A stretch of DNA of 64,000 bases from Eledone cirrhosa (Eukaryota): assembly GCA_964016885.1 (NCBI GenBank), contig OZ024757.1, forward strand, positions 40,734,001 through 40,798,000, read 5' to 3'. Of this stretch, positions 3,001 through 60,958 are shown piece after piece (positions within the stretch are counted from its first letter, which is position 1; every line of letters starts with the position of its first letter). The notes beneath the pieces are model-generated. The model did no database searches, was not told the origin of the DNA, and was given only the letters and a program-made list of their open reading frames with translations. The position numbers and the translations under genes are program-made.

Positions 3001-6000
3001 TGTAATTATTTCATTATATTGTCTTTTAATATAATTTAATTTAATTTAACTTCAGATAATTAATTTAATCTAAATCTTCTTTGAAAGTAGATTTATAAGT
3101 ATCAATTTTCAAGGTCTGGGGTTCAATCGTGGTCGAGAGATACAAGTAGGGTGTCGTATTCCCTTTTTTTTCAGTTTTCCTTTGACATCTCTTAGAAAAA
3201 ACTGTAAAAGGTTAGTGTGAACCCCAATGAGTAATTATCACATTTTTTTTTTTTTATTTTAATTATATATAATTTAATCTAATTTAATTTGATTTAATTA
3301 AACTTTTTTTAAAAGTAGGTTTATAAGTATTGATTTTCAGTCAATCTTCGTAGCTGTCTCTGTGGCTTAGTGGGAAGTGGAGAGACGTTGGTGATCCTGG
3401 TCTGGGGTTCAATCTTGACGGGACAGACATGTAGAGTGTTCCATTCACTTTTTTTTCAGTTTTCTTTTGACATCTCTTAGAAAAAAACTGAAAAAGTTTA
3501 GTGAGAGCCCCAATGAGTAATTATCACATTTTTTTAAATTTTAATTATATATAATTATATATAATTTAATTTGATTTAATTAAACTTTTTTTAAAAGTAG
3601 GTTTATAAGTATTGATTTTCAGTCAATCTTTGTAGCTGTCTCTGTGGCTTAGTGGGAAGTGGAGAGACGTTGGTGATCCTGGTCTGGGGTTCAATCTTGA
3701 CGGGACAGACATGTAGAGTGTTCCATTCACTTTTTTTTCAGTTTTCTTTTGACATCTCTTAGAAAAAAACTGAAAAAGTTTAGTGAGAGCCCCAATGAGT
3801 AATTATCACATTTTTTTTAATTTTAATTATATATAATTATATATAATTTAATTTGATTTAATTAAACTTTTTTTAAAAGTAGGTTTATAAGTATTGATTT
3901 TCAGTCAATCTTTGTAGCTGTCTCTGTGGCTTAGTGGGAAGTGGAGAGACGTTGGTGATCCTGGTCTGGGGTTCAATCTTGACGGGACAGACATGTAGAG
4001 TGTTCCATTCACTTTTTTTTCAGTTTTCTTTTGACATCTCTTAGAAAAAAACTGAAAAAGTTTAGTGAGAGCCCCAATGAGTAATTATCACATTTTTTTT
4101 AATTTTAATTATATATAATTATATATAATTTAATTTGATTTAATTAAACTTTTTTTAAAAGTAGGTTTATAAGTATTGATTTTCAGTCAATCTTCGTAGC
4201 TGTCTCTGTGGCTTAGTGGGAAGTGGAGAGACGTTGGTGATCCTGGTCTGGGGTTCAATCTTGACGGGACAGACATGTAGAGTGTTCCATTCACTTTTTT
4301 TTCAGTTTTCTTTTGACATCTCTTAGAAAAAAACTGAAAAAGTTTAGTGAGAGCCCCAATGAGTAATTATCACATTTTTTTAAATTTTAATTATATATAA
4401 TTATATATAATTTAATTTGATTTAATTAAACTTTTTTTAAAAGTAGGTTTATAAGTATTGATTTTCAGTCAATCTTTGTAGCTGTCTCTGTGGCTTAGTG
4501 GGAAGTGGAGAGACGTTGGTGATCCTGGTCTGGGGTTCAATCTTGACGGGACAGACATGTAGAGTGTTCCATTCACTTTTTTTTCAGTTTTCTTTTGACA
4601 TCTCTTAGAAAAAAACTGCAAAAGGTTAGTGAGAACCCCAATGAGTAATTATCACATTTTTTTTAATTTTAATTATATATAATTATATATAATTTAATTT
4701 GATTTAATTAAACTTTTTTTAAAAGTAGGTTTATAAGTATTGATTTTCAGTCAATCTTTGTAGCTGTCTCTGTGGCTTAGTGGGAAGTGGAGAGACGTTG
4801 GTGATCCTGGTCTGGGGTTCAATCTTGACGGGACAGACATGTAGAGTGTTCCATTCACTTTTTTTTCAGTTTTCTTTTGACATCTCTTAGAAAAAAACTG
4901 AAAAAGTTTAGTGAGAGCCCCAATGAGTAATTATCACATTTTTTTTAATTTTAATTATATATAATTATATATAATTTAATTTGATTTAATTAAACTTTTT
5001 TTAAAAGTAGGTTTATAAGTATTGATTTTCAGTCAATCTTTGTAGCTGTCTCTGTGGCTTAGTGGGAAGTGGAGAGACGTTGGTGATCCTGGTCTGGGGT
5101 TCAATCTTGACGGGACAGACATGTAGAGTGTTCCATTCACTTTTTTTTCAGTTTTCTTTTGACATCTCTTAGAAAAAAACTGAAAAAGGTTAGTGAGAAC
5201 CCCAATGAGTAATTATCACATTTTTTTTAATTTTAATTATATATAATTATATATAATTTAATTTGATTTAATTAAACTTTTTTTAAAAGTAGGTTTATAA
5301 GTATTGATTTTCAGTCAATCTTCGTAGCTCTCTCTGTGGCTTAGTGGGAAGTAGAAAGAGAGACGTTGGTGATCCTAGTCTGGGGTTTAGTCCTGGTCGG
5401 GAGAGACATGTTGACCGTCATATTGTATTTTAATTTAATTTAATTTAATTTAACTTCAGATAATTAATTTAATCTAATTCTTCTTTGAAAGTAGATTTAC
5501 AAGTATCAACTTTCAAGGTCTGGGGTTCAATTATGGTCGAGAGATACAAGTAGGGTGTCGTATTCCCTTTTTTTTCAGTTTTCCTTTGACATCTCTTAGA
5601 AAAAACTGTAAAAGGTTAGTGTGAACCCCAATGAGTAATTATCACATTTTTATTTTATTTTATTTTAATTATATATAATTTAATCTAATTTAATTTGATT
5701 TAATTATACTTTTTTTAAATGTAGGTTTATAAGTATTGATTTTCAGTCAATCTTTGTAGCTGTCTCTGTGGCTTAGTGGGAAGTGGCGAGACGTTGGTGA
5801 TCCTGGTCTGGGGTTCAATCTTGCCGGGAGAGACATGTAGGGTGTTGTATTCAGTTTTCTTTTGACATCTCTTAGAAAAAACTGTAAAAGGTTAGTGTGA
5901 ACCCCAATGAGTAATTATCACATTTTTATTTTATTTCATTTTAATTATATATAATTTAATCTAATTTAATTTGATTTAATTAAACTTTTTTTAAATGTAG

Positions 6001-7190
6001 GTTTATAAGTATTGATTTTCAGTCAATCTTTGTAGCTGTCTCTGTGACGTAGTGGGAAGTTGAGAGACGTTGGTGATCCTGGTCTGGGGTTCAATCTTGC
6101 CGGGAGAGACATGTAGGGTGTCGTATGCACTTTTTTTCAGTTTTCCTTTGACATCTCTTAGAAAAAAACTGTAAAAGGTTAGTCAGAACCCCAATGAGTA
6201 ATTATCACATTTTTATTTTATTTTATTTTAATTATATATAATTTGATCTAATTTAATTTGATTTAATTAAACTTTCTTTTAAAGTAGGTTTATGAGTATT
6301 GATTTTCAGTCAATCTTCGTAGCTGTCTCTGTGGCTTAGTGGGAAGTGGAGAGACTTTGCTGATCCTGGTCTGGGGTTCAATCTTTGCCGGCAGAGACAT
6401 GTAGGGTGTCGTGTATTCACCTTTTTTCAGTTTTGATTTGACATCTCTTAGAAAAAAACTGAAAAAGGTTAGTGAGAACCCCAATGATTAATTATCTCAT
6501 TTTATTTTATTTTAATTATATATAATTAGATATAATTTAATTTGATTTAATTAAACTTTTTTTTAAAGTAGGTTTATAAGTATTGATTTTCAGTCAATCT
6601 TTGTAGCTGTCTCTGTGGCTTAGTGGGAAGTAGAGAGACGTTGGTGATCCTAGTCTGGGGTGCAGTCCTGGTCGGGAGAGACATGTTGACCGTCATATTA
6701 ATTTTTGTTGTCGTATGAAATATTTTTCAATGTTTCTTTTACATCTCTTAGAACAGAAAAAAATGAAGTTTAATGAGAACCCCAATGTGTAATTATTTTA
6801 TTTTATTTTATTCTATCTTGATTTAATTTAATATAATTTGATTTAATTAATTTAATTTTAAATTGAAAGTAGGTTTATAAGTATCAATTTTCAGTAAGTC
6901 TTCGTAGCTGTTTCGTTGAACTATTTGGAGATGTAGAGACGGTAGAACTTGTAACCTGTGGATCACATTCCCTCTGGAGATGCATGAAGGCTATCGTATT
7001 AATCGTTTTGAATTTTTCTTTATATATCTTTTAGAATAAAAACTGGAAAATGTTAATGAGAACCCCATGTGTATTTATTTCATTATATTTCATTTTATTG
7101 AAATTTAATTTAATTTAATTTAGTTTAATTTAATTTAATATATTTTGAAAGTAGCTTTATAAGTAGTAATTTTCTCTAGATTTTTGTAGC
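1..7190 (+). repeat. 282-bp tandem satellite (~25 monomers) with a tRNA-like segment in each monomer; continues off the left edge
   Basis: ATCTCTTAGAAAAAAACTG recurs at 1, 283, 565, 847 and onward. Monomers are near-identical, with variant monomers interspersed and progressive decay after ~6650. Confidence 0.97.
167..268 (+). ncRNA. tRNA-like Pol III cassette within the satellite monomer (representative copy)
   Basis: GTCTCTG start, A-box TGGCTTAGTGG, D-stem GCTT/AAGT, B-box-like GGTTCAATC (in most monomers; this copy reads GTTTCAATC), AGAGAC acceptor partner in variant monomers, then a T8 run. Anticodon and T stems pair poorly. Confidence 0.5.
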
Positions 7191-26731: not shown

Positions 26732-26790
26732 ATATGTAATTATATATAAATATATATATATATATAAATACATATATATATATATTTATA

Positions 26791-27240
26791 TACAATATTA
26801 AATAAATGGAAACTATATTTATAAAACCATATTTATTTCATTATATATATTCAGGGATATCATATTAACAATATGCTATGCCTTCCTCAGACAAAATACA
26901 ATATAAACAGTTTTATAGATAAATAGATTTGACATACCGTAACAACATCGACTTGTATTTGAAAAAGTTGAATTGGCATTTTTCAAATACAAGTCGATGT
27001 TGTTACGGTATGTCAAATCTATTTATCTATAAAACTGTTTATATTGTATTTTGTCTGAGGAAGGCATAGCATATTGTTAATATGATATCCCTGAAATATA
27101 TATAATGAAATAAATATGGTTTTATAAATATAGTTTCCATTTATTTAATATTGTAAATATACTCCAAATACTTGTCGAGTGATTTTATATCAGTTATAAA
27201 TATTTACTAGTTGTAACCAACAATTTAAATATAACTTTCC
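26791..27240. mobile_element. Palindromic hammerhead-bearing element (family B, copy 1)
   Basis: ~176-bp inverted arms 26791-27155 with a 12-bp loop. CTGAGGA...GAAAT-atat-ATA hammerhead at 27047-27112, mirrored in the left arm. Confidence 0.8.
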
Positions 27241-27310
27241 ATATATATTTATATAATATATATATATATATACACACATATATATATATATATATAAATA
27301 CATATATATA

Positions 27311-27860
<550 letters not shown>

Positions 27861-31450: not shown

Positions 31451-31998
31451 CCTTGAATCTCAGTCATTGATGTTGGTTAACTGGAAAGTCCGTTGGATTG
31501 AATATCAAGCCACTACCTGCAGCCTCAGATATTCAGGACGTATCGGAGGGTTCTTGCCGTTCCAAGCAAGCATGCCTTTTGAAGCGTTCCAAAAAGCGTG
31601 AAGGGGCCGATTTTCTTTAACCATCCCTGGAAACCTTTGGAGATAGTCCCCAGTGCGCCTATGACAATCGGGATCACTTTGACTTCATGGCAGTTCCAAA
31701 TCCTTTTCACCTCCCACTTTAGGTCCTGGTATCGGTTAATTTTCTCCCTCTCCTTCTCTTGCACTCTCGTGTCGAACGGGCAGGCCACATCCACAATCAG
31801 GCACGATCTTTTTTCTTTGTCCACAACCACCAGGTCAGGTCTATTGTATTCCAGTTTTTTGTCCGTCTGTATCCTAAAATCCCACAGCACCTTCACCTGA
31901 CTGTTCTCCATCACCGCCTCTGGCCTATGCTCATACCATTTCTCAGAATGTGGTAGATTGTTTACTTTGCACAGGTGCCAGTGGATCACCCTGCCCAT
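31451..31998 (-). mobile_element. 5'-truncated R4/Dong-like non-LTR retrotransposon (restriction-like endonuclease C-terminus plus 3' UTR) in (TAA)n
   Basis: IHWHLCK...WYEHRP...VLWDFRIQTD...NRPDLVVVDK...IVDVACPFD...EKINRYQDL...IPIVIGALG is a PD-(D/E)xK RLE domain. Stop at 31525. Flanked by (ATT)n. Confidence 0.9.
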
Positions 31999-32001
31999 CA
32001 C

Positions 32002-32034
<33 letters not shown>

Positions 32035-32047
32035 CATTATTATTATT

Positions 32048-32325
32048 CTTTGAGTCTCAGTCATTGATGTTATTTAACTGGAAGGTTTGTTGAAATGAAT
32101 ATCAAGCCACTACCTTCAGTCTCAGATATTCAGGACGTATCGGAGGGTTCTTGCTGTTCCCAGCAAGCATGCCTTTTCAAGTGTTCCAAAAAGCGGGGCG
32201 GGACCAATTTTCTTTAACCATCCTTCGAAACTCTTTGAGATAGTACCTAGTGCGCCTATGACAATCGGTACCACTTTCACCTCATGGCAGTTCCAAATCC
32301 TTTTTACCTCCCACTTTAAGTCCTG

Positions 32326-45394: not shown

Positions 45395-45425
<31 letters not shown>

Positions 45426-45615
45426 GTAGATAAATCTACCAAGAGTTTACGGTAGTGTCCAATCCGTATGAAGAACTCAATATATTCCGGATATCATGGA
45501 AAGAAGAGATGTAATGAAAATCCAATTTCGGTGAAAGATAAACGATATACAGAGTCAAGATAAAATATTAAACAAATAATGAACAAACAATTCCTTATAT
45601 TAAACAAAAAAAGTT

Positions 45616-45766
45616 CACTATTTAACGATCGTTTCTAGGGCATATATGTGTTATAATTGATATGCATATTTAACAGATCTATGTACAAAATTATACAAAA
45701 TTATACAAATTATCAAGATTAAATATACATACCTAACTCATATATACGCCGTCTTCAGAAATAATG
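45616..45766 (-). ncRNA. Type I hammerhead ribozyme with ~115-nt stem II (left copy)
   Basis: Mirror of 54449-54599 with one substitution. Confidence 0.78.
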
Positions 45767-46537
45767 AAGTATATTTATTGATAATAACAACAATTCAAAA
45801 TATCAGTTCAAAATTGACCAATGAAAACACAAAGGGTTAAAAAGCAGTTTGGTGTGTGTATATACATGTAAAACCCCACACACATTTTACAATAATGTGT
45901 GTATAATCTGTATGTGCATACTAAAAAGATGGATGCAAATAAAAAATTTCAAGGTTAATATCTCTGTAAGCTTAATGCGCTGATAAGATACGCAATGATA
46001 CTTATGGAGTCAAGCATATAAATATATTTTTTTCATACTCACACATATCAGTATAATCACACATACATGTGCGTATATATATAAATATACACATAACCAC
46101 AAACACACAAACACACACACTCCCCCACTCACATTTATATATGTGGATATAAAATCATAAGCAAATAGAAATTAAGTCACTCACATAAACACACTGGTAC
46201 ACACATTTCAAGATCAAGATACAGAAATTAGGTGGGAGGGGGGGGGAGGGGTCAGTATTAGACTGTCAGACCAGACAACCTTAATATAAATGTATCTATA
46301 AATTATGAAAAATAAAAAAATAAAAACAATAAAGTATAATACATATAATATAATGTACGTACGCATACAGATATACATACACATACATACATGTACGCGC
46401 ACATAGAGATATCTATACATACATACATACACACATACCTATACTGTCATACACACACATACATTTACACGAACTTACACATACACATATAAAAAGATAT
46501 AAATACGGACACACACACGCGCAACACATACATACAT

Positions 46538-46588
<51 letters not shown>

Positions 46589-46697
46589 TATACACACACA
46601 CGTAGACTCATATATATATACATACACATACATACATTTATACACAAACATATATATCCCACACTCATACCACCATAAAAACACATACAAACATCCA

Positions 46698-46748
<51 letters not shown>

Positions 46749-46969
46749 ACATACACACACGTACACACATATGTATATATACATACATATATACACACAT
46801 ACACATATATATATATCCACACACACACATAAAATACGGACATGCACATATATATATATATATATATATATATTTCATTACTCTTATATATACACACAGT
46901 ATATATACATACACAACCTCACTTATACACATATACACATAAGTTATATTACAATAATAATAAAGAATA

Positions 46970-47000
<31 letters not shown>

Positions 47001-47149
47001 CATATATATACACACATATACACATATACATACACACACATACACATACATACATACATACACATACATACATACACCTAAATATAAACATATATAAATA
47101 CACACATACGAATAAAGACATATATTCACACATAGACACCTATATACAC

Positions 47150-47181
<32 letters not shown>

Positions 47182-47211
47182 CAATATACACACACATACA
47201 CATACATACAC

Positions 47212-47249
<38 letters not shown>

Positions 47250-47278
47250 GCACACACATACAGACACACATACACACT

Positions 47279-47309
<31 letters not shown>

Positions 47310-49037
47310 GTGTATGTGAGTGTGCGCCAATACATATATATACATATATACACACACACATACAAACACACACAAACTCATACATATGCATACGCACACA
47401 CACACACACATATACCACATAGATACGAAGATAAACATATAAATAGAGAGACATACAAATATATACAGAACCCATATACACATACATACAAACACGCATA
47501 TACATATATATACATATATACACACATATATATTCCTATATACAAGCATACACATACACACACATATATACATATACATACACATATACATATCACACAT
47601 TCACATACACGTACATATATAATACATATATATACATACATATACATATATATGTATGTACAATCATATACACACTCAATCTTACATTCATATTTACATG
47701 CTCATATATGTATTTTTATATTTAGAAATAAATACCAAAAAAAAACTATATAGACACCCATCTACATATATATTCATACATATACACTTACAAAAACAGA
47801 TGATAATAGTATGGGGGAAAGGGGGGGTTTGGAGAAGGGGATCAAAATAAATATATGTTTCAAGAAACATATAATATTTTCCATATCTTAATTCAATGTA
47901 TGTTCCTAACATATTTTCAGTGCTAGGAAATACGAAATCTATGCATCACAAAATAAAAAAAGTATACTATTAATCATATGTCAACTAAACCAAAGATAGT
48001 CAACATATTGATTTCCAAGGTGTAAATTAGTTAGGTTTATAATATTTGAGGCAGAATTATGAAGTCAAACAGTAGTAGATTATTAATTACATTATAACTA
48101 AATTAAAGTTAATAACGTTATGGTATCAATATTAGGAGATGAATAGGGAAAAGAAACCCAAATAAAAATAAAAATAAAATAAAGTATTACATCGGTAGTA
48201 GCATATAAATTATATGTTAACTAAGTTAAAAATTATATATTTATTTCAATAGTATATGTTAATTAGTATATGTTAATTAGGTATACAATATATAAAGCAG
48301 ATATTGTATTTCATCAATAGCATAATATAATTATATGCAAATAAAAATCAAAATTAATACGCACACATATACATATACATACACATACACATACCTATAC
48401 ATATACATACACATATATATATATATATATACATATATATACACATACATACATATATAGTCACATAAATATACATACAGATACACATACAACACACACA
48501 TATACATATACATATAGATATACATATCTTTTTCAAAAAATTTGCACAGAATATATTAACTAGGTATATATCCAAAAACACCTCCCATTCTATGATTACA
48601 TGACATTCTGCAATTTGTCTGTACAATGATACTAATTTTAAGCAAATTAAAGTTAAAATTAAAGTTTTAGGTTGATTAAAGCTAAAACCAAATAATAAAT
48701 ATATTTCCAAAATGTATATTAATTAGGTCAATAATACTAAAAATTCTTTCTCCGTCATAGGATACATGATATTATTTTGTTATATTTTATCTGTAAAAGA
48801 ATTATAATAAAAAAAATTATAATAAAAGGTTAAACTAAATTAAAAAATTATAATAAAAGGTTAAAATAAGTTAAAATTAATCTATAAATTAAATTACTGA
48901 ATATATATTAGTAATATTTAAAGGTTTTTCAAAATTAATGATTACATAATATTTTCTCATCTGTAATAAAATATTAATTAAATTAAATTTATAGGTTAAC
49001 TAACATTTAAATTAAATTAAATTCTAGAATAATGTTA

Positions 49038-50413
49038 TTAATTAGGTTTATAATATTTAAATGTTTTTTTTAGTTTATGATTACACGATATAATTAATTC
49101 CTGTCTTTTATTTAATAAGATATCCCTAGACTTCATTATTTCAAATAGTTCTTGGGAACATAATCTACATTCCTTTCTATTATTTTGATAAGGGGTGGCT
49201 CTTTTGAGCACACTCCAGGTCAAATCATATTTTATATTTTTATTTTTATAACTATTGATTTTTTCTGCTAGAGATGTTGTATTAGCCAGTGCGGCATTTT
49301 TAAAGCTATGTTTGTGGGTATTATATCTTGTCTTAAAATTGTTAGAGGTAGCTCCTATATATGAGCAAATAGAATCTTTAGTTTTAACATTACATTTATA
49401 GACTATGTTGTTAACAAGACAATTCCCTTTTAATGGGCAGTTTGTTTTGTTTCTACAGTTACATCCTTTCGTTAATTCTGTATTTGAGGAGATATTATTG
49501 TTAATTTGATGTACTGGTGGTATACTTATAGTTTTCTTACATTTATATGCATTATATGCACTTATATTTTGTTTTATGTTATTTGTTGTAGAATATGAGA
49601 ATTTAACTGTAGACCTATTTAAGATTTGATGGTATTTGTGGTTTGGCGGGAAGTTTTTCTCAAGGATATAAAAAAATTTTTTAGCAATATTATCCTTAAC
49701 TTGTAAATTAAAAGGAGCATTATACCAAGTAACTCGTCTATTACGGTTTCTATGTTGTTTATTATTTTTATTATTTTTATATGTTGTATCATGATTTTTA
49801 CTAGGAGGAATAATGTTAATGATCTCACCATAACTATTTTTAGTTATATTTGTAGATTTAGGTGTTTTATCTTTTTTATTAGGAGTTTTATTATTAATAT
49901 TTATTATAGTCTTATGATGAGTAGTTTTTTGAGGGTTACTATACTTTATATTAAAAGATTTAGTATTTTGGGGTATACTGTGGGTGGCATTTAGGTGTAT
50001 ACTTTTCATTTGGTGTTTGTTGGTAATATTATGCTGTATGCTTTCAGTATTTTTAGTAGAAGGTATATACTCTAATCTATTTTTGTGGCCACTTCTATCT
50101 AGAGCTTCATTATAAAAGGTCGCATTTTTATCAAATACATCTTGGTTAGAAGAAAGGTTAGAAATTCTAAGTGATATATTATATGCAAGGTTTTTAAGGA
50201 TAGATTTAGGGTGATTAGATTGTGAGTGTATGTAATGTAAGTTTTGGTTAGGTTTATGGTAAGGTTGGTATATACCCGTAGCTAAATCTAAAGTTATATC
50301 TAGGAAATTTACTACTTTACTTGTTTTTTCAAAAGTAATATTAAGATTATAATAGTCTTTAAGGAAAGTTCTAATATGCTTTTTGTTTTTTTCGATTTCT
50401 GAAAGGCTAAGGT
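49038..50413 (-). CDS. Partial Penelope-like polyprotein: RT C-terminus/thumb, linker and GIY-YIG endonuclease
   Basis: VNFLDITL, YHKPN, YIHSQSNHP, RRVTWYNAPF, CNCx5CPLxGxC, VYKC...YIGAT...FKTRYNTHKHSF, CRLC. The frame is uninterrupted. The first ~13 aa of the listed ORF come from the inverted arm. Confidence 0.9.
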
Positions 50414-50414
50414 T

Positions 50415-51167
50415 GATACAACATATAAAAATAATAAAAATAATAAACAACATAGAAACCGTAATAGACGAGTTACTTGGTATAATGCTCCTTTTAATTT
50501 ACAAGTTAAGGATAATATTGCTAAAAAATTTTTTTATATCCTTGAGAAAAACTTCCCGCCAAACCACAAATACCATCAAATCTTAAATAGGTCTACAGTT
50601 AAATTCTCATATTCTACAACAAATAACATAAAACAAAATATAAGTGCATATAATGCATATAAATGTAAGAAAACTATAAGTATACCACCAGTACATCAAA
50701 TTAACAATAATATCTCCTCAAATACAGAATTAACGAAAGGATGTAACTGTAGAAACAAAACAAACTGCCCATTAAAAGGGAATTGTCTTGTTAACAACAT
50801 AGTCTATAAATGTAATGTTAAAACTAAAGATTCTATTTGCTCATATATAGGAGCTACCTCTAACAATTTTAAGACAAGATATAATACCCACAAACATAGC
50901 TTTAAAAATGCCGCACTGGCTAATACAACATCTCTAGCAGAAAAAATCAATAGTTATAAAAATAAAAATATAAAATATGATTTGACCTGGAGTGTGCTCA
51001 AAAGAGCCACCCCTTATCAAAATAATAGAAAGGAATGTAGATTATGTTCCCAAGAACTATTTGAAATAATGAAGTCTAGGGATATCTTATTAAATAAAAG
51101 ACAGGAATTAATTATATCGTGTAATCATAAACTAAAAAAAACATTTAAATATTATAAACCTAATTAA
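50415..51167 (+). CDS. Partial Penelope-like linker plus GIY-YIG endonuclease (no start codon)
   Basis: DTTYKNNKNNKQHRNR...YIGAT...KYYKPN*, the mirror of 49038-49790. Confidence 0.85.
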   Translation, partial: DTTYKNNKNNKQHRNRNRRVTWYNAPFNLQVKDNIAKKFFYILEKNFPPNHKYHQILNRSTVKFSYSTTNNIKQNISAYNAYKCKKTISIPPVHQINNNISSNTELTKGCNCRNKTNCPLKGNCLVNNIVYKCNVKTKDSICSYIGATSNNFKTRYNTHKHSFKNAALANTTSLAEKINSYKNKNIKYDLTWSVLKRATPYQNNRKECRLCSQELFEIMKSRDILLNKRQELIISCNHKLKKTFKYYKPN

Positions 51168-52905
51168 TAACATTATTCTAGAATTTAATTTAATTTAAAT
51201 GTTAGTTAACCTATAAATTTAATTTAATTAATATTTTATTACAGATGAGAAAATATTATGTAATCATTAATTTTGAAAAACCTTTAAATATTACTAATAT
51301 ATATTCAGTAATTTAATTTATAGATTAATTTTAACTTATTTTAACCTTTTATTATAATTTTTTAATTTAGTTTAACCTTTTATTATAATTTTTTTTATTA
51401 TAATTCTTTTACAGATAAAATATAACAAAATAATATCATGTATCCTATGACGGAGAAAGAATTTTTAGTATTATTGACCTAATTAATATACATTTTGGAA
51501 ATATATTTATTATTTGGTTTTAGCTTTAATCAACCTAAAACTTTAATTTTAACTTTAATTTGCTTAAAATTAGTATCATTGTACAGACAAATTGCAGAAT
51601 GTCATGTAATCATAGAATGGGAGGTGTTTTTGGATATATACCTAGTTAATATATTCTGTGCAAATTTTTTGAAAAAGATATGTATATCTATATGTATATG
51701 TATATGTGTGTGTTGTATGTGTATCTGTATGTATATTTATGTGACTATATATGTATGTATGTGTATATATATGTATATATATATATATATATGTGTATGT
51801 ATATGTATAGGTATGTGTATGTGTATGTATATGTATATGTGTGCGTATTAATTTTGATTTTTATTTGCATATAATTATATTATGCTATTGATGAAATACA
51901 ATATCTGCTTTATATATTGTATACCTAATTAACATATACTAATTAACATATACTATTGAAATAAATATATAATTTTTAACTTAGTTAACATATAATTTAT
52001 ATGCTACTACCGATGTAATACTTTATTTTATTTTTATTTTTATTTGGGTTTCTTTTCCCTATTCATCTCCTAATATTGATACCATAACGTTATTAACTTT
52101 AATTTAGTTATAATGTAATTAATAATCTACTACTGTTTGACTTCATAATTCTGCCTCAAATATTATAAACCTAACTAATTTACACCTTGGAAATCAATAT
52201 GTTGACTATCTTTGGTTTAGTTGACATATGATTAATAGTATACTTTTTTTATTTTGTGATGCATAGATTTCGTATTTCCTAGCACTGAAAATATGTTAGG
52301 AACATACATTGAATTAAGATATGGAAAATATTATATGTTTCTTGAAACATATATTTATTTTGATCCCCTTCTCCAAACCCCCCCTTTCCCCCATACTATT
52401 ATCATCTGTTTTTGTAAGTGTATATGTATGAATATATATGTAGATGGGTGTCTATATAGTTTTTTTTTTTTTTTTTTTGGTATTTATTTCTAAATATAAA
52501 AATACATATATGAGCATGTAAATATGAATGTAAGATTGAGTGTGTATATGATTGTACATACATATATATGTATATGTATGTATATATATGTATTATATAT
52601 GTACGTGTATGTGAATGTGTGATATGTATATGTGTATGTATATGTATATATGTGTGTGTATGTGTATGCTTGTATATAGGAATATATATGTGTGTATATA
52701 TGTATATATATGTATATGCGTGTTTGTATGTATGTGTATATGGGTTCTGTATATATTTGTATGTCTCTCTATTTATATGTTTATCTTCGTATCTATGTGG
52801 TATATGTGTGTGTGTGTGTGCGTATGCATATGTATGAGTTTGTGTGTGTTTGTATGTGTGTGTGTATATATGTATATATATGTATTGGCGCACACTCACA
52901 TACAC

Positions 52906-52936
<31 letters not shown>

Positions 52937-52965
52937 AGTGTGTATGTGTGTCTGTATGTGTGTGC

Positions 52966-53003
<38 letters not shown>

Positions 53004-53033
53004 GTGTATGTATGTGTATGTGTGTGTATATTG

Positions 53034-53065
<32 letters not shown>

Positions 53066-53214
53066 GTGTATATAGGTGTCTATGTGTGAATATATGTCTT
53101 TATTCGTATGTGTGTATTTATATATGTTTATATTTAGGTGTATGTATGTATGTGTATGTATGTATGTATGTGTATGTGTGTGTATGTATATGTGTATATG
53201 TGTGTATATATATG

Positions 53215-53245
<31 letters not shown>

Positions 53246-53466
53246 TATTCTTTATTATTATTGTAATATAACTTATGTGTATATGTGTATAAGTGAGGTT
53301 GTGTATGTATATATACTGTGTGTATATATAAGAGTAATGAAATATATATATATATATATATATATATGTGCATGTCCGTATTTTATGTGTGTGTGTGGAT
53401 ATATATATATGTGTATGTGTGTATATATGTATGTATATATACATATGTGTGTACGTGTGTGTATGT

Positions 53467-53517
<51 letters not shown>

Positions 53518-53626
53518 TGGATGTTTGTATGTGTTTTTATGGTGGTATGAGTGTGGGATATATATGTTTGTGTATAAATGTATGTATGTGTATGTATATA
53601 TATATGAGTCTACGTGTGTGTGTATA

Positions 53627-53677
<51 letters not shown>

Positions 53678-54448
53678 ATGTATGTATGTGTTGCGCGTGT
53701 GTGTGTCCGTATTTATATCTTTTTATATGTGTATGTGTAAGTTCGTGTAAATGTATGTGTGTGTATGACAGTATAGGTATGTGTGTATGTATGTATGTAT
53801 AGATATCTCTATGTGCGCGTACATGTATGTATGTGTATGTATATCTGTATGCGTACGTACATTATATTATATGTATTATACTTTATTGTTTTTATTTTTT
53901 TATTTTTCATAATTTATAGATACATTTATATTAAGGTTGTCTGGTCTGACAGTCTAATACTGACCCCTCCCCCCCCCTCCCACCTAATTTCTGTATCTTG
54001 ATCTTGAAATGTGTGTACCAGTGTGTTTATGTGAGTGACTTAATTTCTATTTGCTTATGATTTTATATCCACATATATAAATGTGAGTGGGGGAGTGTGT
54101 GTGTTTGTGTGTTTGTGGTTATGTGTATATTTATATATATACGCACATGTATGTGTGATTATACTGATATGTGTGAGTATGAAAAAAATATATTTATATG
54201 CTTGACTCCATAAGTATCATTGCGTATCTTATCAGCGCATTAAGCTTACAGAGATATTAACCTTGAAATTTTTTATTTGCATCCATCTTTTTAGTATGCA
54301 CATACAGATTATACACACATTATTGTAAAATGTGTGTGGGGTTTTACATGTATATACACACACCAAACTGCTTTTTAACCCTTTGTGTTTTCATTGGTCA
54401 ATTTTGAACTGATATTTTGAATTGTTGTTATTATCAATAAATATACTT

Positions 54449-54599
54449 CATTATTTCTGAAGACGGCGTATATATGAGTTAGGTATGTATATTTAATCTT
54501 GATAATTTGTATAATTTTGTATAATTTTGTACATAGATCTGTTAAATATGCATACCAATTATAACACATATATGCCCTAGAAACGATCGTTAAATAGTG
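54449..54599 (+). ncRNA. Type I hammerhead ribozyme with ~115-nt stem II (right copy)
   Basis: CATTATTT-CTGAAGA-c-GGCGTATAT...ATATATGCC-cta-GAAAC-GATC-GTT-AAATAGTG. Confidence 0.8.
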
Positions 54600-54646
54600 A
54601 ACTTTTTTTGTTTAATATAAGGAATTATTTGTTCATTATTTGTTTA

Positions 54647-54686
<40 letters not shown>

Positions 54687-56322: not shown

Positions 56323-58290
56323 TCAGGATTTGGGCACCATGGCCCATTCGAGAAGAGAATTACTGTTTGCGGAGACATATCCGGGTGTGGGTGGTTTGTC
56401 CGGGATTACTTGGAGGAATTTGTCCAAAGACTTCTTGAATTTTGTGTGGTCAGTTTCTGTTTTGACGTGTCCTGGTGTGATGTTGAAGAGAGCAGGGCCG
56501 ATTGAGGTGAAATAATTGTGCCGTATTGTTGTTATGAGTTGCGATTTAGATTTTTGAATGGGACGGATAGCACGGGGCCCAAGCCTTGGGTGTATCTTGA
56601 AGGCGATGCCAACATCATTTGGGCAGTGATGATGGAACATTTTCCACATCATGCAGATAATATAACGCTCACGGCGACGTTGGAGTGAGTAAAGTTTCAG
56701 GTTTTCCAATCGACCCCAGTAGTCAAGGTCTGACATGCCATCTATCTTTTTCGTGATTGCCCTTTGAGGAGCTTCAAGTTTCATGATACTTTGTTTCGTG
56801 TGGGGAGACCACAGTGGACAACAGTATTCAAGGTGTGGTCGGGCGAAAGTAGAGAAGAGAAGGATAATGGTGCGGGAATCTCTCGACTGGAAGGTTCTGA
56901 GGATCCAGGAACACATTCTGCGGGCCATGTCAACTTTGCTGCTTATATGCGTGGTCCAGCTTATGTTGCTGTCCACGGTTACTCCCAAGTCTCTGATGTT
57001 GTTAGATGCCACGAGAGTTTCCCCGGAGGGAAGGGAGTACGGGAGTTTCAGAGCATCCTCTTTTCCAAAGTGGATCAGTTCGAATTTGTCTTCGTTCAGT
57101 AACATGTTGTTCTTTTCTGCCCATTGGGTAACAGCCAGTAGGTCTGACTGAAGGCTTATCCGGTCATCCACGCCATTGATGACCTTTTGGAGCTTGGAAT
57201 CATCAGCGAAAATTTTAATGTTGCTGTGTTTGATGATGTCAGTGATGTCATTAATATAGATGATGAAGAGAAGTGGGCCCAACACAGTGCCTTGTGGGAC
57301 TCCACTACTGACTTTGGCTGGGCTTGATTTGACTCCCTCAACTACAACATGTTGGGTTCTGTTTGACAGGAAGCTCTTGATCCACTGCAGCAGCTTTCCA
57401 GTGACACCAATATTGGACAGCTTTCTCAGTAGAATGTTATGATCAACCCTGTCAAAGGCCTTGCTGAAATCAAGGTAGATAACATCAGTGTTGGAACCCT
57501 CTCCCAAGGCTCTCAAAATGTCATCAAAGTGATGCAGTAGTTGCGTCAGGCAATCCCTTCCATTACGGAATCCATGCTGGTTGGAGTTCAGCATATTGTT
57601 ACTCTCAAGGAAGTGGGTCATTCGCGATCTCACCACTCGCTCAAATACCTTAATGATATGAGAGGTGAGTGAGATTGGACGGTAATTCACGGCAAGGGAT
57701 TTGTTTCCCTTTTTGAAAACTGGGACAACAGACTGGGATAGAAGGTTTTCTGGCACATATCCAGCATCCAGTGAGTTCCGCCACAGATTGGCAAGAGGAG
57801 AAGCAAGTTGGTGTTGACACGCCTTCAAGACACAAGCAGGGAACCTATCGGGACCTACTGCTGAATTATGCTTGATTTCCTTTATTGCCGCCAAGACATC
57901 AGGGGCGCCAAACGTTATGTCCGATAAGGTGTAATGGGGAGTAACATCGCCGATACAGCCCAGATCGGCCATATCAGGATTGCTGAAAACAGAGCAGTAT
58001 TGTTTCTGCAGTATCTCACCCATGGTTTTAGCATTGTCTTGAAGAGTGCCATTTTCATCAATTAGAGGGCCAACAGTAGAGCCAGTGATTTTGTGTTTTT
58101 TTGCAAATGAAAAGAACACTTTGGGATTGAGTTTGATCTTCTCAATGGCCCAGGCCTCTTCAGCTCTTCTCTGATTGTTGATGAGGGACATTATGTTGTT
58201 TTGGAGGTTATGTTTTTTAATCTCTAGTGATGAAATGGCAGTCAAGTTGATGTGTTGCTGCTGACAGTATTTCAGATTGTTGATTTTTTT
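56323..58290 (-). CDS. LINE ORF2 C-terminal part: reverse transcriptase, split from APE by a 1-nt homopolymer frameshift
   Basis: GPD, PVFKKG, NYRPISLTS, QHGFR, YLDFSKAFD, GVPQGTVLGPLLF, FADD, RDLGV, RPHLEY motifs. Confidence 0.95.
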   Translation of the reverse strand, partial: KKINNLKYCQQQHINLTAISSLEIKKHNLQNNIMSLINNQRRAEEAWAIEKIKLNPKVFFSFAKKHKITGSTVGPLIDENGTLQDNAKTMGEILQKQYCSVFSNPDMADLGCIGDVTPHYTLSDITFGAPDVLAAIKEIKHNSAVGPDRFPACVLKACQHQLASPLANLWRNSLDAGYVPENLLSQSVVPVFKKGNKSLAVNYRPISLTSHIIKVFERVVRSRMTHFLESNNMLNSNQHGFRNGRDCLTQLLHHFDDILRALGEGSNTDVIYLDFSKAFDRVDHNILLRKLSNIGVTGKLLQWIKSFLSNRTQHVVVEGVKSSPAKVSSGVPQGTVLGPLLFIIYINDITDIIKHSNIKIFADDSKLQKVINGVDDRISLQSDLLAVTQWAEKNNMLLNEDKFELIHFGKEDALKLPYSLPSGETLVASNNIRDLGVTVDSNISWTTHISSKVDMARRMCSWILRTFQSRDSRTIILLFSTFARPHLEYCCPLWSPHTKQSIMKLEAPQRAITKKIDGMSDLDYWGRLENLKLYSLQRRRERYIICMMWKMFHHHCPNDVGIAFKIHPRLGPRAIRPIQKSKSQLITTIRHNYFTSIGPALFNITPGHVKTETDHTKFKKSLDKFLQVIPDKPPTPGYVSANSNSLLEWAMVPKS

Positions 58291-59344
58291 TGTTCGTTCT
58301 CTTAATTTTTCTGATGAGCGTTTTTCTATTTCTAGGGATTCTGCTCTTAGATTTGTTTATAGTTCTTAATGGGGTGTGTTTAGCACATATGTTTGTAACA
58401 GTGTCCACAAATGTCTGCCAGGACTTTTTGATGTTAGTGGGTGTATGAGTGTGCGTGAAGGACCAGTCGACATGTGCAAGATCATGACTGATCGCTTCCC
58501 AGTTTGCATTGTGGAAATCCATAGCGTCAAACGGATGGGCAGGAGAAATGACATTGGGTTTGTATATTGGACGGTGGAATCTCAGATCACAGAGAACCAT
58601 GTCATGATCAGAGAGTAGAGTTTTCTCCACTGCAATATTGTGGATATTGTCAGTGTGATTGCTGAAAATTAAGTCTAGGACGTTTTTGTGGCACCTCGTT
58701 GGTTCGAGCACTAGTTGGGATAGGAAGAAATCATCCATGAAGTCAAGAAGCGATTCCACAGCTTCCCTGTCAGAGGTTGAGGCAGAAGAACCTGGTGGCA
58801 GGGTGTTTGTGGACCAGTCAACTCCGGGGAGGTTGAAGTCCCCCATCATTAAGATGTTGTCAGGGTGACACTCTTGGATGAAACACTTTATGCTGTTGAG
58901 GCATTCCTTGAAGCATGGTACAGGCGTTTGGGGTGGCCTATAGAGCCCAACTACTAATAGGTTGTTGGTTTGACTGAATACAGTGACTGCTTCACAGTAT
59001 CCATTAGTGAATATGTTCATAGCCTCTGTTGAGAAAGAATTATGGACATAAATGGCAGTTCCGCCCTTTCTTCTGCCAGCGCGATCAGCACGGATGGCTT
59101 TGAAATTTTTCACTTTCACCTCGGCTTCCAAGTGGAGGTTACTGAGATGGGTTTCAGTGAGGACGAAGAAAGGGATGTGGTTTGGATGGACATCAATCCA
59201 GTCCTCCAGGAATTTGATCTTCCATTTTTGAGTATTGGTGGAAGGGCTGATGCCTTGGGCGTTAAGCAAAAATGTAGAGGCGAGGGTGGATGGTTTTAAT
59301 TGTTTTGGTGTGTTGTTAATTTGTTTGTTTGTTAATGGCAGCAA
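58217..59344 (-). CDS. LINE ORF2 N-terminal part: apurinic-like endonuclease
   Basis: LLNAQGI, LTETHL, RADR...GGTAIYV, LYRPP, MGDFNLP, PTR...LDLIF, SDH motifs. Confidence 0.93.
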   Translation of the reverse strand: MLPLTNKQINNTPKQLKPSTLASTFLLNAQGISPSTNTQKWKIKFLEDWIDVHPNHIPFFVLTETHLSNLHLEAEVKVKNFKAIRADRAGRRKGGTAIYVHNSFSTEAMNIFTNGYCEAVTVFSQTNNLLVVGLYRPPQTPVPCFKECLNSIKCFIQECHPDNILMMGDFNLPGVDWSTNTLPPGSSASTSDREAVESLLDFMDDFFLSQLVLEPTRCHKNVLDLIFSNHTDNIHNIAVEKTLLSDHDMVLCDLRFHRPIYKPNVISPAHPFDAMDFHNANWEAISHDLAHVDWSFTHTHTPTNIKKSWQTFVDTVTNICAKHTPLRTINKSKSRIPRNRKTLIRKIKRTNKKNQQSEILSAATHQLDCHFITRD

Positions 59345-60486
59345 TGGGAGTTTGTGCAGTGGGGTGATAGTGGAGGGTGGTGCTGGGTGATAGCTCGAAT
59401 GTTTTTTTCCAGTTCTTTTGCCAGATTCATTATGGCTAAAAAAGAGGAAGAAGTTTCCTGTTTAGAAGACTGTTGGTGACTGTGGTAGTGGTTATTTTTA
59501 TGTAGGTTATGGTTTTTGTTTTTGCTTTTATTTTTAATTTTATTTTCATTTATCCGACGGGTCCCCGGGAGATGGGTAAAGGGACAATCCCGGTCTAAAC
59601 ACAATCTGTCTCGCAGGGAAAAACGGCAGATTTGTGGATTCCTTGTTTGAGTTATTGGTGGTTGTGTTGGTGTTAAATTAGAGTATGTATTATGGTGGTG
59701 GCTGTTTGTGGGGATAGATCGTTTTGTCCTAGGTAAATGGGTGAATTTGCAGCCACTATCCGTACATATTCTATAGCGTAGAGAGTAGCGGCAAATGATG
59801 GGGTTTCGAGTGGGTGGGTATGTGGGTGTGGGTGTTGTGAGAGGTGTAGATGATGGTTTGGGTAGGATTTGACGACCTTTGTGGACTGTGGGAGGGAGAG
59901 TTCTTGTTCTGGTATTAGAAGGTAAATTCCTTGACATAGCAGTAGACAAAAATGTTGTAGTAGTAGTAGTAGGCAGAGATGTTGGCAGTGGTGATGATTG
60001 GACTGCTGGGCCAGAGAAAGGATGTGGCGTTTCATGCTGTGAGACAGAGGCTACTGGGGGGTCAATAGTTTCATTTAGTAGATCGGCCATTGTTGATGAA
60101 TCAAGGAGTGGTTCACACTGTTGTTGTTGCTGTTGTTGATGTTGTTGTTGTAGCTGTTGTTGATGTTGTTGTTGTAGCTGTTGTTGTTGTTGCTGTTGTA
60201 GCTGCTGTTGTTGTTGTTGCTGCTGCTGGACAGCATTCGAAGAGAAAACACACCGTAGTTTATCCAAATGTTTATTGATTAATTTAAAAGCAATTTCGAT
60301 TTGCTTTAATTTATTTTGAATCTGTTGTTCAGATCGAGTTTTCAAAAATTGAACTGTACGTTTAGCAATGTCGTTCAGAGATGAAACATCTATATTTTCT
60401 GTTTGGGAAAGGCAATGCCATGTGTTTATTAGAATGTCGATTTCATTATCAGACCAGTTCTGTTTGGATTTTTGCTGGTTAGCCAT
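59332..60486 (-). CDS. LINE ORF1: Myb/SANT-like N-terminus, polyQ, two CCCH-type zinc fingers
   Basis: NWSDNEIDILINTW...TRSEQQIQNKLKQI; CRYSLRYRICTDSGCKFTH; CRFSLRDRLCLDRDCPFTH. Lies directly upstream of the APE domain. Confidence 0.85.
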   Translation of the reverse strand: MANQQKSKQNWSDNEIDILINTWHCLSQTENIDVSSLNDIAKRTVQFLKTRSEQQIQNKLKQIEIAFKLINKHLDKLRCVFSSNAVQQQQQQQQQLQQQQQQQLQQQHQQQLQQQHQQQQQQQCEPLLDSSTMADLLNETIDPPVASVSQHETPHPFSGPAVQSSPLPTSLPTTTTTTFLSTAMSRNLPSNTRTRTLPPTVHKGRQILPKPSSTPLTTPTPTYPPTRNPIICRYSLRYRICTDSGCKFTHLPRTKRSIPTNSHHHNTYSNLTPTQPPITQTRNPQICRFSLRDRLCLDRDCPFTHLPGTRRINENKIKNKSKNKNHNLHKNNHYHSHQQSSKQETSSSFLAIMNLAKELEKNIRAITQHHPPLSPHCTNSHCCH

Positions 60487-60497
60487 TCTAGTTTTGA

Positions 60498-60958
60498 GTG
60501 TGTGTGTGTTTTAGTTAAGTATTTCAATATATATATATTTTTTTTTTAAATTTATTTTTGATTTATTTTTGTTTTTTGTTTTTCTTGTGTGTGAGTGAGA
60601 AGCGTATATATATAAATATGAGTATATATATATATATATATGTATATTCTGGTTATTTGAAATTAATTAAGTTAATGAAAAGACGAAAGTATATAATAAT
60701 AATTTGTAGTTAAAGGAAAATGTACTCACAAGTTCGTGTGTGTGTGTTTTAGTTAAGTATTTCAATATATATATATTTTTTTTTTTTAAATTTATTTTTG
60801 TTTTTTGTTTTTCTTGTGTGTGAGTGAGAAGCGTATATATATAAATATGAGTATATATATATATATATATATGTATATTCTGGTTATTTGAAATTAATGA
60901 AAAGACGAAAGTATATAATAATAATTTGTAGTTAAAGGAAAATGTACTCACAAGTTCG
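60498..60958 (-). repeat. ~238-bp tandem duplication in the LINE 5' UTR
   Basis: GTGTGTGTTTTAGTTAAGTATTTC...GTACTCACAAGTTCG occurs twice. Confidence 0.9.

What the first reader, a model, noticed from the sequence alone, without database searches (positions are those of the whole stretch)
45425..54655. 9.2-kb palindrome from two head-to-head Penelope-like (Naiad-type) copies
Seen: arms 45560-49791 and 50414-54655 (~4.23 kb each) are almost identical, even through long microsatellites. The 622-bp spacer is extra RT sequence of the left copy, and both 3' ends run into (TA)n. Differences I could see are a 10-nt poly(A/T) length change (47736 vs 52459) and two substitutions near the outer ends. 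The left copy extends ~135 bp further 3'. Known: inverted, truncated partial tandems are characteristic of Penelope-like insertions. Inference: a very recent single event from an active family, unusually large, and a potential source of multi-kb dsRNA (ADAR or siRNA substrate) and cruciform instability.
Basis: partly seen in the sequence, partly recalled or inferred. Interest (0 to 1): 0.75.

Follow-up and report, generated by a model that had tools for sequence, protein, structure and literature searches.

The report
Giant palindromes from a Hydra-clade Penelope
This 9-kb mirror-image stretch is real but routine: it is one insertion of a high-copy Penelope-like jumping gene (Hydra clade, not Naiad) whose two-armed insertions pair one long and one short outer end, likely because both ends of a cut TA repeat copy the same RNA from two fixed start points and the copies are then joined head to head.

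Summary
The palindrome is confirmed (arms 45560-49791 and 50414-54655, 99.7%). It is one insertion of a 6.2-kb Penelope-like element. Natural full copies encode 812 aa, RT then C-terminal GIY-YIG, with Hydra-clade motifs and a hammerhead motif: Hydra, not Naiad. It is not unusually large: the genome holds thousands of ends, 8 of 34 sampled pairs span 9 kb or more, and one palindrome spans 38.8 kb. The family shows a rule: 23 of 23 two-ended insertions have one tailless end and one end 137 nt longer. Either arm can be the longer one, and sister arms differ at 1 of 319 polymorphic-site comparisons (117 expected). 670 mini-palindromes fold back at one upstream site with a cap-like extra G. Likely mechanism: both target ends prime reverse transcription on one sense RNA, then join. 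Two loci also show DNA fold-back. Inverted copies and tails are published; earlier unreviewed notes of this scan reached the same model on other families of this genome. dsRNA, editing and instability are untested.

The parts
45401..45424 (.). (TA)n target, left side
   Evidence: sequence
45423..50415 (-). Left copy, 5'-truncated at position 1354 of the 6213-nt unit, with tailed (T) end
45423..45559 (-). 137-nt tail; in tandem copies it is the first 137 nt of the next unit; its end is the inferred distal RT start
   Evidence: 4134 exact tailed ends genome-wide
45614..45768 (-). Type I hammerhead motif of the left copy; predicted RNA start at 45765
45769..49037 (-). About 3.3-kb 3' spacer rich in (TA/TG/CA)n, shared by all long family copies, so part of the element
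49038..50413 (-). ORF remnant, about residues 356-812: RT thumb, about 110-aa N/K/T-rich insert, CxCx5C linker, GIY-YIG endonuclease; lacks the YRDD catalytic motif
49792..50413 (-). 622-bp spacer: extra 5' sequence of the left copy
50414..50415 (.). Head-to-head joint with 2-nt overlap
50414..54655 (+). Right copy, 5'-truncated at unit position 1978, with tailless (S) end
   Evidence: 2029 exact tailless ends genome-wide
50414..51167 (+). ORF remnant, about residues 563-812 (linker and endonuclease only)
51168..54446 (+). Microsatellite-rich 3' spacer of the right copy
54447..54601 (+). Type I hammerhead motif: 10-bp stem I, CUGAAGA core, about 105-nt stem II, palindromic stem III, predicted cut after 54591; predicted RNA start at 54450
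   Evidence: fold z=-5.65; pair-keeping variants
54653..54682 (.). (TA)n target, right side
   Evidence: sequence

Best explanation
The palindrome is one recent insertion of a 6.2-kb Hydra-clade Penelope-like retrotransposon, likely made when both ends of a cut (TA)n target each primed reverse transcription on the same sense RNA, one at a proximal and one at a distal site 137 nt apart. Shown: identity of the element, the two fixed outer ends, their one-of-each pairing, independent inner ends, a shared template lineage, short overlaps at the joint. Inferred: the GIY-YIG domain cuts both strands; two RT molecules start 64 and 201 nt downstream of the hammerhead cut site; each cDNA stops on its own (here at unit positions 1354 and 1978); the two 3' ends are joined through 0-10 nt of microhomology and filled in. 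When the two sites in the 5' pLTR are used, both cDNAs run off the capped RNA start and give the 0.55-kb mini-palindromes. In some insertions part of the second arm is instead made by fold-back copying of the first cDNA.
For: End rule: 23 of 23 insertions with both outer ends read (of 30 loci, window included) are one tailless plus one tailed end, none two alike (1e-7 if ends were drawn freely). On C1 0-100 Mb, 34 of 46 exact tailless ends have a divergent tailed end within 20 kb; random mean 0.45, maximum 4 in 2000 trials. Tailless arm longer in 10, tailed arm longer in 10, within 30 nt in 3 of 23. Sister arms differ at 1 of 319 family-polymorphic site comparisons against 117 expected for arms of other loci (20 pairs). 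Joints overlap by 1-10 nt in 16 of 23, blunt 1, insert 6. 670 palindromes fold back just 5' of the hammerhead core; G precedes that start in 29 of the first 100 listed of 1753 against 5 of 100 of 345 at the next base (p=7e-6), and both arms carry it at 2 insertions among 30 loci viewed. No long arm is paired with an arm starting at that site in 23 + 17 long loci. In vitro, the Anolis Poseidon protein cleaves and extends both strands and starts at two internal sites that bound the tail (PMC11167929, parts 1-2 of 4 read).
Against: Not every insertion is two-armed: 4 of 30 loci showed one arm only, 9 of 20 tailed ends without an exact partner had no inverted arm in 10 kb, and tailed ends outnumber tailless 4134 to 2029. 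2 divergent tailless-tailless pairs among 100 listed ends and 1 tailed-tailed among 100. Two loci carry an inverted copy of 1.4 and 2.7 kb of their own host flank, which RNA copying alone cannot make. Sister identity could also come from fold-back, gene conversion or assembly polishing. 4 of 11 G cases viewed in context are ambiguous. In vitro the two strands showed no difference in start site (PMC11167929). No RNA, no empty site and no reads of this individual were seen.
Confidence: 0.72

Rival explanations
1. Fold-back as the main route for long palindromes: one cDNA is made, its 3' end snaps back and copies itself as DNA, and this strand then meets a short cDNA primed at the other target end.
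For: C3:362.80 Mb and C1:30.69 Mb: both long arms end at the tailless site, 1413 and about 2670 bp of host flank are duplicated in inverted form, then a short tailed arm follows. Near-equal inner ends at several loci (1455/1456, 1217/1217, 5901/5901). In 20 young pairs 8 of 16 arm differences lie in the outer 500 nt (p=0.005, post hoc).
Against: The outer enrichment did not repeat in 15 further pairs (9 of 50, p=0.88). Mini-palindromes often have perfect centres with no loop, and some carry the extra G on both arms. It still needs both target ends primed at two sites, so it changes only how the inner part of the second arm is made.
Confidence: 0.2
2. Self-priming on an antisense transcript makes a hairpin that is then integrated (proposed in PMC3846280).
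For: Published reading of junction palindromes (discussion read); junction palindromes are common here.
Against: With a fixed antisense start one arm type should always be the longer at the centre; found 10:10. The cap-like G sits at a sense-strand start. Spacers of hundreds of bases with 1-3 nt overlap are common.
Confidence: 0.04
3. Assembly artefact (fold-back chimera or a collapsed repeat), or two separate insertions side by side.
For: No read of this individual was available; the assembly shows indel noise in microsatellites, so the poly(T) difference may be an error.
Against: Flanks are unrelated, the outer ends differ in the family-typical way, arms carry private substitutions, the same design recurs across chromosomes, and the arms share a haplotype (0 of 15 polymorphic sites differ, 5.4 expected).
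Confidence: 0.04

Closest known systems
Hydra clade of C-terminal EN+ Penelope-like elements (PMC8557442; e.g. Hydra-1_Obim, Penelope-13_HM)
   Same: Single ORF RT then GIY-YIG; DKT, RWK-like, CxCx5C, CxxC, CxH motifs; no CCHH; hammerhead near the 3' end; (TA)n target; Penelope-13_HM is listed with a 5'-truncated inverted copy.
   Different: Unit 6.2 kb against under about 3 kb for listed members; 3.3-kb microsatellite spacer; about 110-aa linker insert; about 105-nt hammerhead stem II; 137-nt tail against the 30-40 bp described for PLEs. By eye a different family from Hydra-1_Obim (not aligned by tool). Best database relative 40% identical over the whole length.
Naiad clade (PMC8557442)
   Same: (TA)n target, inverted 5'-truncated copies, tail.
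   Different: Naiad has an N-terminal endonuclease, DKA, CCHH and no canonical hammerhead; none holds here.
Anolis Poseidon PAc in vitro (PMC11167929)
   Same: Two internal RT start sites downstream of the hammerhead bound the tail; both strands cut and extended; AT-rich target.
   Different: Other clade; no coupling of site to strand was seen in vitro, and inverted copies were not explained in the parts read.
Adineta Penelope families (PMC3846280)
   Same: Inverted pLTR, tail on one end, junction palindromes, N-rich ORF inserts, host-derived spacer before the 3' pLTR.
   Different: Few copies; spacer 0.9-1.5 kb; explained there by antisense self-priming.
L1 twin priming (recalled, from no call)
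   Same: Both target strands prime cDNA on one RNA; joined by microhomology.
   Different: In L1 the second primer anneals far inside the RNA and gives an inversion with little duplication; here both start within 137 nt, so the copied part is doubled into a palindrome.

Membership tests
Hydra-clade PLE | Single ORF with C-terminal GIY-YIG endonuclease | tested here: met
   812-aa ORF at 4 of 4 full-length loci; VY...YIG near the C-terminus. Pfam scan found no family; assignment rests on motifs and on relatives.
Hydra-clade PLE | DKT in place of DKG; RWK motif; divergent RT4 | tested here: met
   SDKTGN; RVRWRA (RWR, also in P0001/P0003); FDITMGSSDSA like published FDVTMGSYDGA
Hydra-clade PLE | CxCx5C linker; CxxC and CxH around the conserved E and N; no CCHH | tested here: met
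   CNCRNKTNC, CRLCSQE, NKRQELIISCNH; one Cys only on each side within VY-YIG, no PLE CCHH spacing seen by eye
Hydra-clade PLE | Canonical hammerhead near the 3' end | tested here: met
   Core, three stems, GUU cut triplet; z=-5.65, 0 of 200 shuffles; G-C/G-U/A-U exchange in stem II among 147 matches (core required by the pattern). Rfam missed it. Cleavage not tested.
Hydra-clade PLE | (TA)n insertion | tested here: met
Hydra-clade PLE | Generally short (<3 kb) | tested here: not met
   Unit 6213 nt. The paper gives this as a general trait, not a criterion; the coding part is of normal size.
Hydra-clade PLE | RT phylogeny with published Hydra members | not tested
   Published sequences were compared by eye only; no tree was built.
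Naiad | N-terminal GIY-YIG endonuclease | tested here: not met
Naiad | DKA motif, CCHH, no canonical hammerhead | tested here: not met
   DKT, no CCHH, hammerhead present
EN+ PLE insertion structure | Partial tandems, inverted 5'-truncated copy, tail at one end | tested here: met
   25 of 30 loci with an inverted partner; seamless tandems at 7 of 30

The most novel reading that the evidence does not exclude
Penelope-like elements insert by strictly coupled two-site twin priming: two RT molecules on one RNA, one per target end, and on a hammerhead-closed circular RNA both roll round several times, giving palindromes of up to 39 kb with three units a side. In a 3-Gb genome this family alone supplies hundreds of multi-kb near-perfect palindromes, a likely large source of hairpin RNA for editing.
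Probability: 0.3. Interest if true: 0.75.

Novelty: new member of a known kind. Interest (0 to 1): 0.47.

Why it matters
The locus itself is one of many. The family matters because how Penelope-like elements build inverted copies and one-sided tails is an open question (PMC8557442 section 15, PMC11167929), and this young family with intact ORFs gives counts that constrain it: one-of-each ends, one template, either arm longer, a cap-like stop. It names the two start sites and the RNA start, so an in vitro test is direct. Arm divergence also dates single insertions, as LTR pairs do (0-3 substitutions in young pairs, 22 in one older pair). Long near-perfect inverted repeats are the main substrate of A-to-I hyper-editing, and octopus scores high on both (PMC5625713, passages); a link to this family is untested.

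Tried and rejected
Rfam scan: only microsatellite noise and a weak hammerhead hit outside the element. Pfam: no family for the PLE protein. First hammerhead pattern failed through my own regex, fixed. First arm comparison was inflated by gap placement, redone with masking. Circle versus linear multimer: six units of the 38.8-kb palindrome show no mirrored variants, but differences are few and noisy, inconclusive. Outer enrichment of arm differences not replicated. Homodimer prediction of residues 1-478: no verdict, alignment not used. Sequencing runs: no RNA holder listed; laid runs hold related copies, do not cover the left flank, and gave no empty-site or junction evidence. 3' spacer as locus-specific transduction rejected: it is in all long copies. 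A-to-I origin of the two arm differences rejected: they are private C>T and G>A. No tRNA in the window. Host gene context not established. Literature: searches listed no paper that, by title, abstract or the parts read, reports the one-of-each end rule; most subscription papers are not in the library. Seen: PMC8557442 abstract, sections 3, 4 (part 1 of 4), 11, 15, supplement part 2 of 59 and search passages; PMC11167929 parts 1-2 of 4; PMC3846280 passages and discussion; PMC5625713, PMC13282606 and bioRxiv 10.64898/2026.07.22.740005 passages only (its supplements not seen).

Full report
Observation. The inverted repeat is as described: 45560-49791 against 50414-54655, 99.7% over 4242 columns, with two substitutions and a 10-nt poly(T) difference. 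The 622-bp spacer is further 5' sequence of the left copy, the copies overlap by 2 nt, and the left copy runs 137 nt further before (TA)n.

What the element is. The window lies on contig C18 of a 3.0-Gb genome; the host was not identified (size and TA richness look octopus-like, from recall). A search with the endonuclease region returned 40 scored places of 1633 candidates at 99-100% identity, in 30 loci including the window; all 29 others were fetched. The 3.3-kb microsatellite-rich stretch behind the stop codon is present in all long copies, so it belongs to the element. Seamless tandems define a unit of 6213 nt: 137-nt leader (the tail), ATG at 290, stop at 2731, hammerhead cut site at 6150. 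Four of four full-length loci translated give an open 812-aa protein, RT then GIY-YIG, with SDKT, RWR, YRDD, CNCRNKTNC, CRLC and CNH. These are the Hydra-clade marks in PMC8557442; Naiad has the endonuclease in front and no canonical hammerhead. 119 relatives at E<=1e-20 share the layout, the best at 40% over the full length; most lack the about 110-aa N/K/T-rich insert. A type I hammerhead with a long stem II folds at 54447-54601 (z=-5.65), matches the layout of published Hydra hammerheads, and its variants keep the pairs, including G-C to G-U to A-U. Both copies in the window lack the RT active site.

Is it unusual? No. Exact end junctions number 2029 (tailless) and 4134 (tailed); 303 places read through into the 5' UTR. 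In the first 100 Mb of C1, 34 of 46 tailless ends have a divergent tailed end within 20 kb (random mean 0.45); spans run from 263 to 14526 bp, 16 at 5 kb or more and 8 at 9 kb or more (one of these proved complex, and one was not resolved). A locus on C2 is a 38.8-kb palindrome with 19.1-kb arms at 99.4% and three units a side.

The rule. Of the 30 loci, 23 had both outer ends readable on opposite strands; all 23 are one tailless plus one tailed end. The tailless arm is the longer in 10, the tailed in 10, and 3 are within 30 nt. Sixteen of 23 joints overlap by 1-10 nt. In 20 pairs, sister arms differ at 1 of 319 polymorphic-site comparisons where arms of other loci would differ at 117. Single-armed insertions exist: 9 of 20 tailed ends without an exact partner had no inverted arm, 11 had one with a variant end.

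The short class. 670 palindromes fold back within a few bases 5' of the hammerhead core. 1753 places start at the A of unit position 6009 with a non-template base in front; G stands there in 29 of the first 100, against 5 of 100 at the next position (p=7e-6). That RT copies the cap as an extra G is recalled from LINE work, not from a call; 4 of 11 G cases seen in context are ambiguous and 2 insertions carry the G on both arms. No long arm is paired with an arm that starts at this site among 23 and 17 long loci, as expected if both primers act on the same pLTR of one RNA.

Mechanism. Shown in vitro for another clade: both strands are cut and extended, and RT starts at two internal sites that bound the tail (PMC11167929). 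Inferred here: each end of the cut (TA)n primes at one of the two sites on the same sense RNA; the cDNAs stop independently and are joined head to head. The window's insertion is such a product with stops at 1354 and 1978. Two loci show that a cDNA can also fold back and copy itself into the host flank (1.4 and 2.7 kb duplicated), so the inner part of a long second arm may sometimes be DNA-templated; a test by position of arm differences was positive in one set and not in a second. Antisense self-priming (PMC3846280) fits the 10:10 split and the sense-side G poorly. Multi-unit arms suggest a circular or multimeric RNA; this could not be decided.

Consequences. The predicted starts at 54450 and 45765 point outward; hairpin RNA would need outside read-through. 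No RNA run was available and no host gene was established in the window, so dsRNA, editing and instability remain untested.

Prior work. Inverted truncated copies, one-sided tails, N-rich inserts and host-derived spacers are published for PLEs. My searches listed no paper that states the one-of-each rule, within the limits of the library. Earlier unreviewed notes of this scan reached the same two-start, one-RNA, cap reading from short palindromes of other families in this genome; my reading was written down before they were shown, but they are not independent support. What this family adds is the multi-kb evidence: either arm longer, shared haplotypes, fold-back overruns and a 38.8-kb case.

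Verdict. Interest 0.47, carried by the testable mechanism.

Noticed in passing
G000:C2:36290961-36329728 (L175-L179): 38.8-kb palindrome of this family: 19.1-kb arms at 99.4%, two full and one truncated unit a side, tailless left, tailed right.
   Followed up: partly
G000:C3:362.805-362.818 Mb and C1:30.691-30.708 Mb: Both long arms end at the tailless site and 1.4 / 2.7 kb of host flank is duplicated in inverted form before a short tailed arm: DNA fold-back running into the chromosome.
   Followed up: partly
unit positions about 800-865: Cluster of 5' stops in long copies (10 arms), cause unknown.
   Followed up: no
unit position about 6150-6157 (C7:68.17 Mb, L092, L110, L120): A few short arms start at the predicted hammerhead cut site, a possible trace of cleaved RNA as template.
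   Followed up: no
L153-L174: Several subfamilies 86-98% alike to the reference all have near-identical sister arms, so several lineages moved recently; their 3' spacers differ in length.
   Followed up: partly
window 56323-60510 (-): Near-complete LINE: 392-aa ORF with a weak Myb/SANT match, AP endonuclease (414 aa frame) and RT (677 aa frame) in different frames.
   Followed up: partly
window 26780-27160 and 27290-27660: Two short head-to-head palindromes of another hammerhead-bearing family; more hammerhead-like motifs near 17.4, 17.7, 24.7, 25.0, 29.3, 36.1, 43.5 and 62.1 kb.
   Followed up: no
window 1-7190: 282-bp tandem repeat in two nested blocks, with a tRNA-like stretch by eye; ARAGORN finds no tRNA.
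   Followed up: partly
window 31528-32073 (-): 182-aa frame resembling a restriction-like endonuclease of R2/R4-type elements (recalled motif; no Pfam hit).
   Followed up: no
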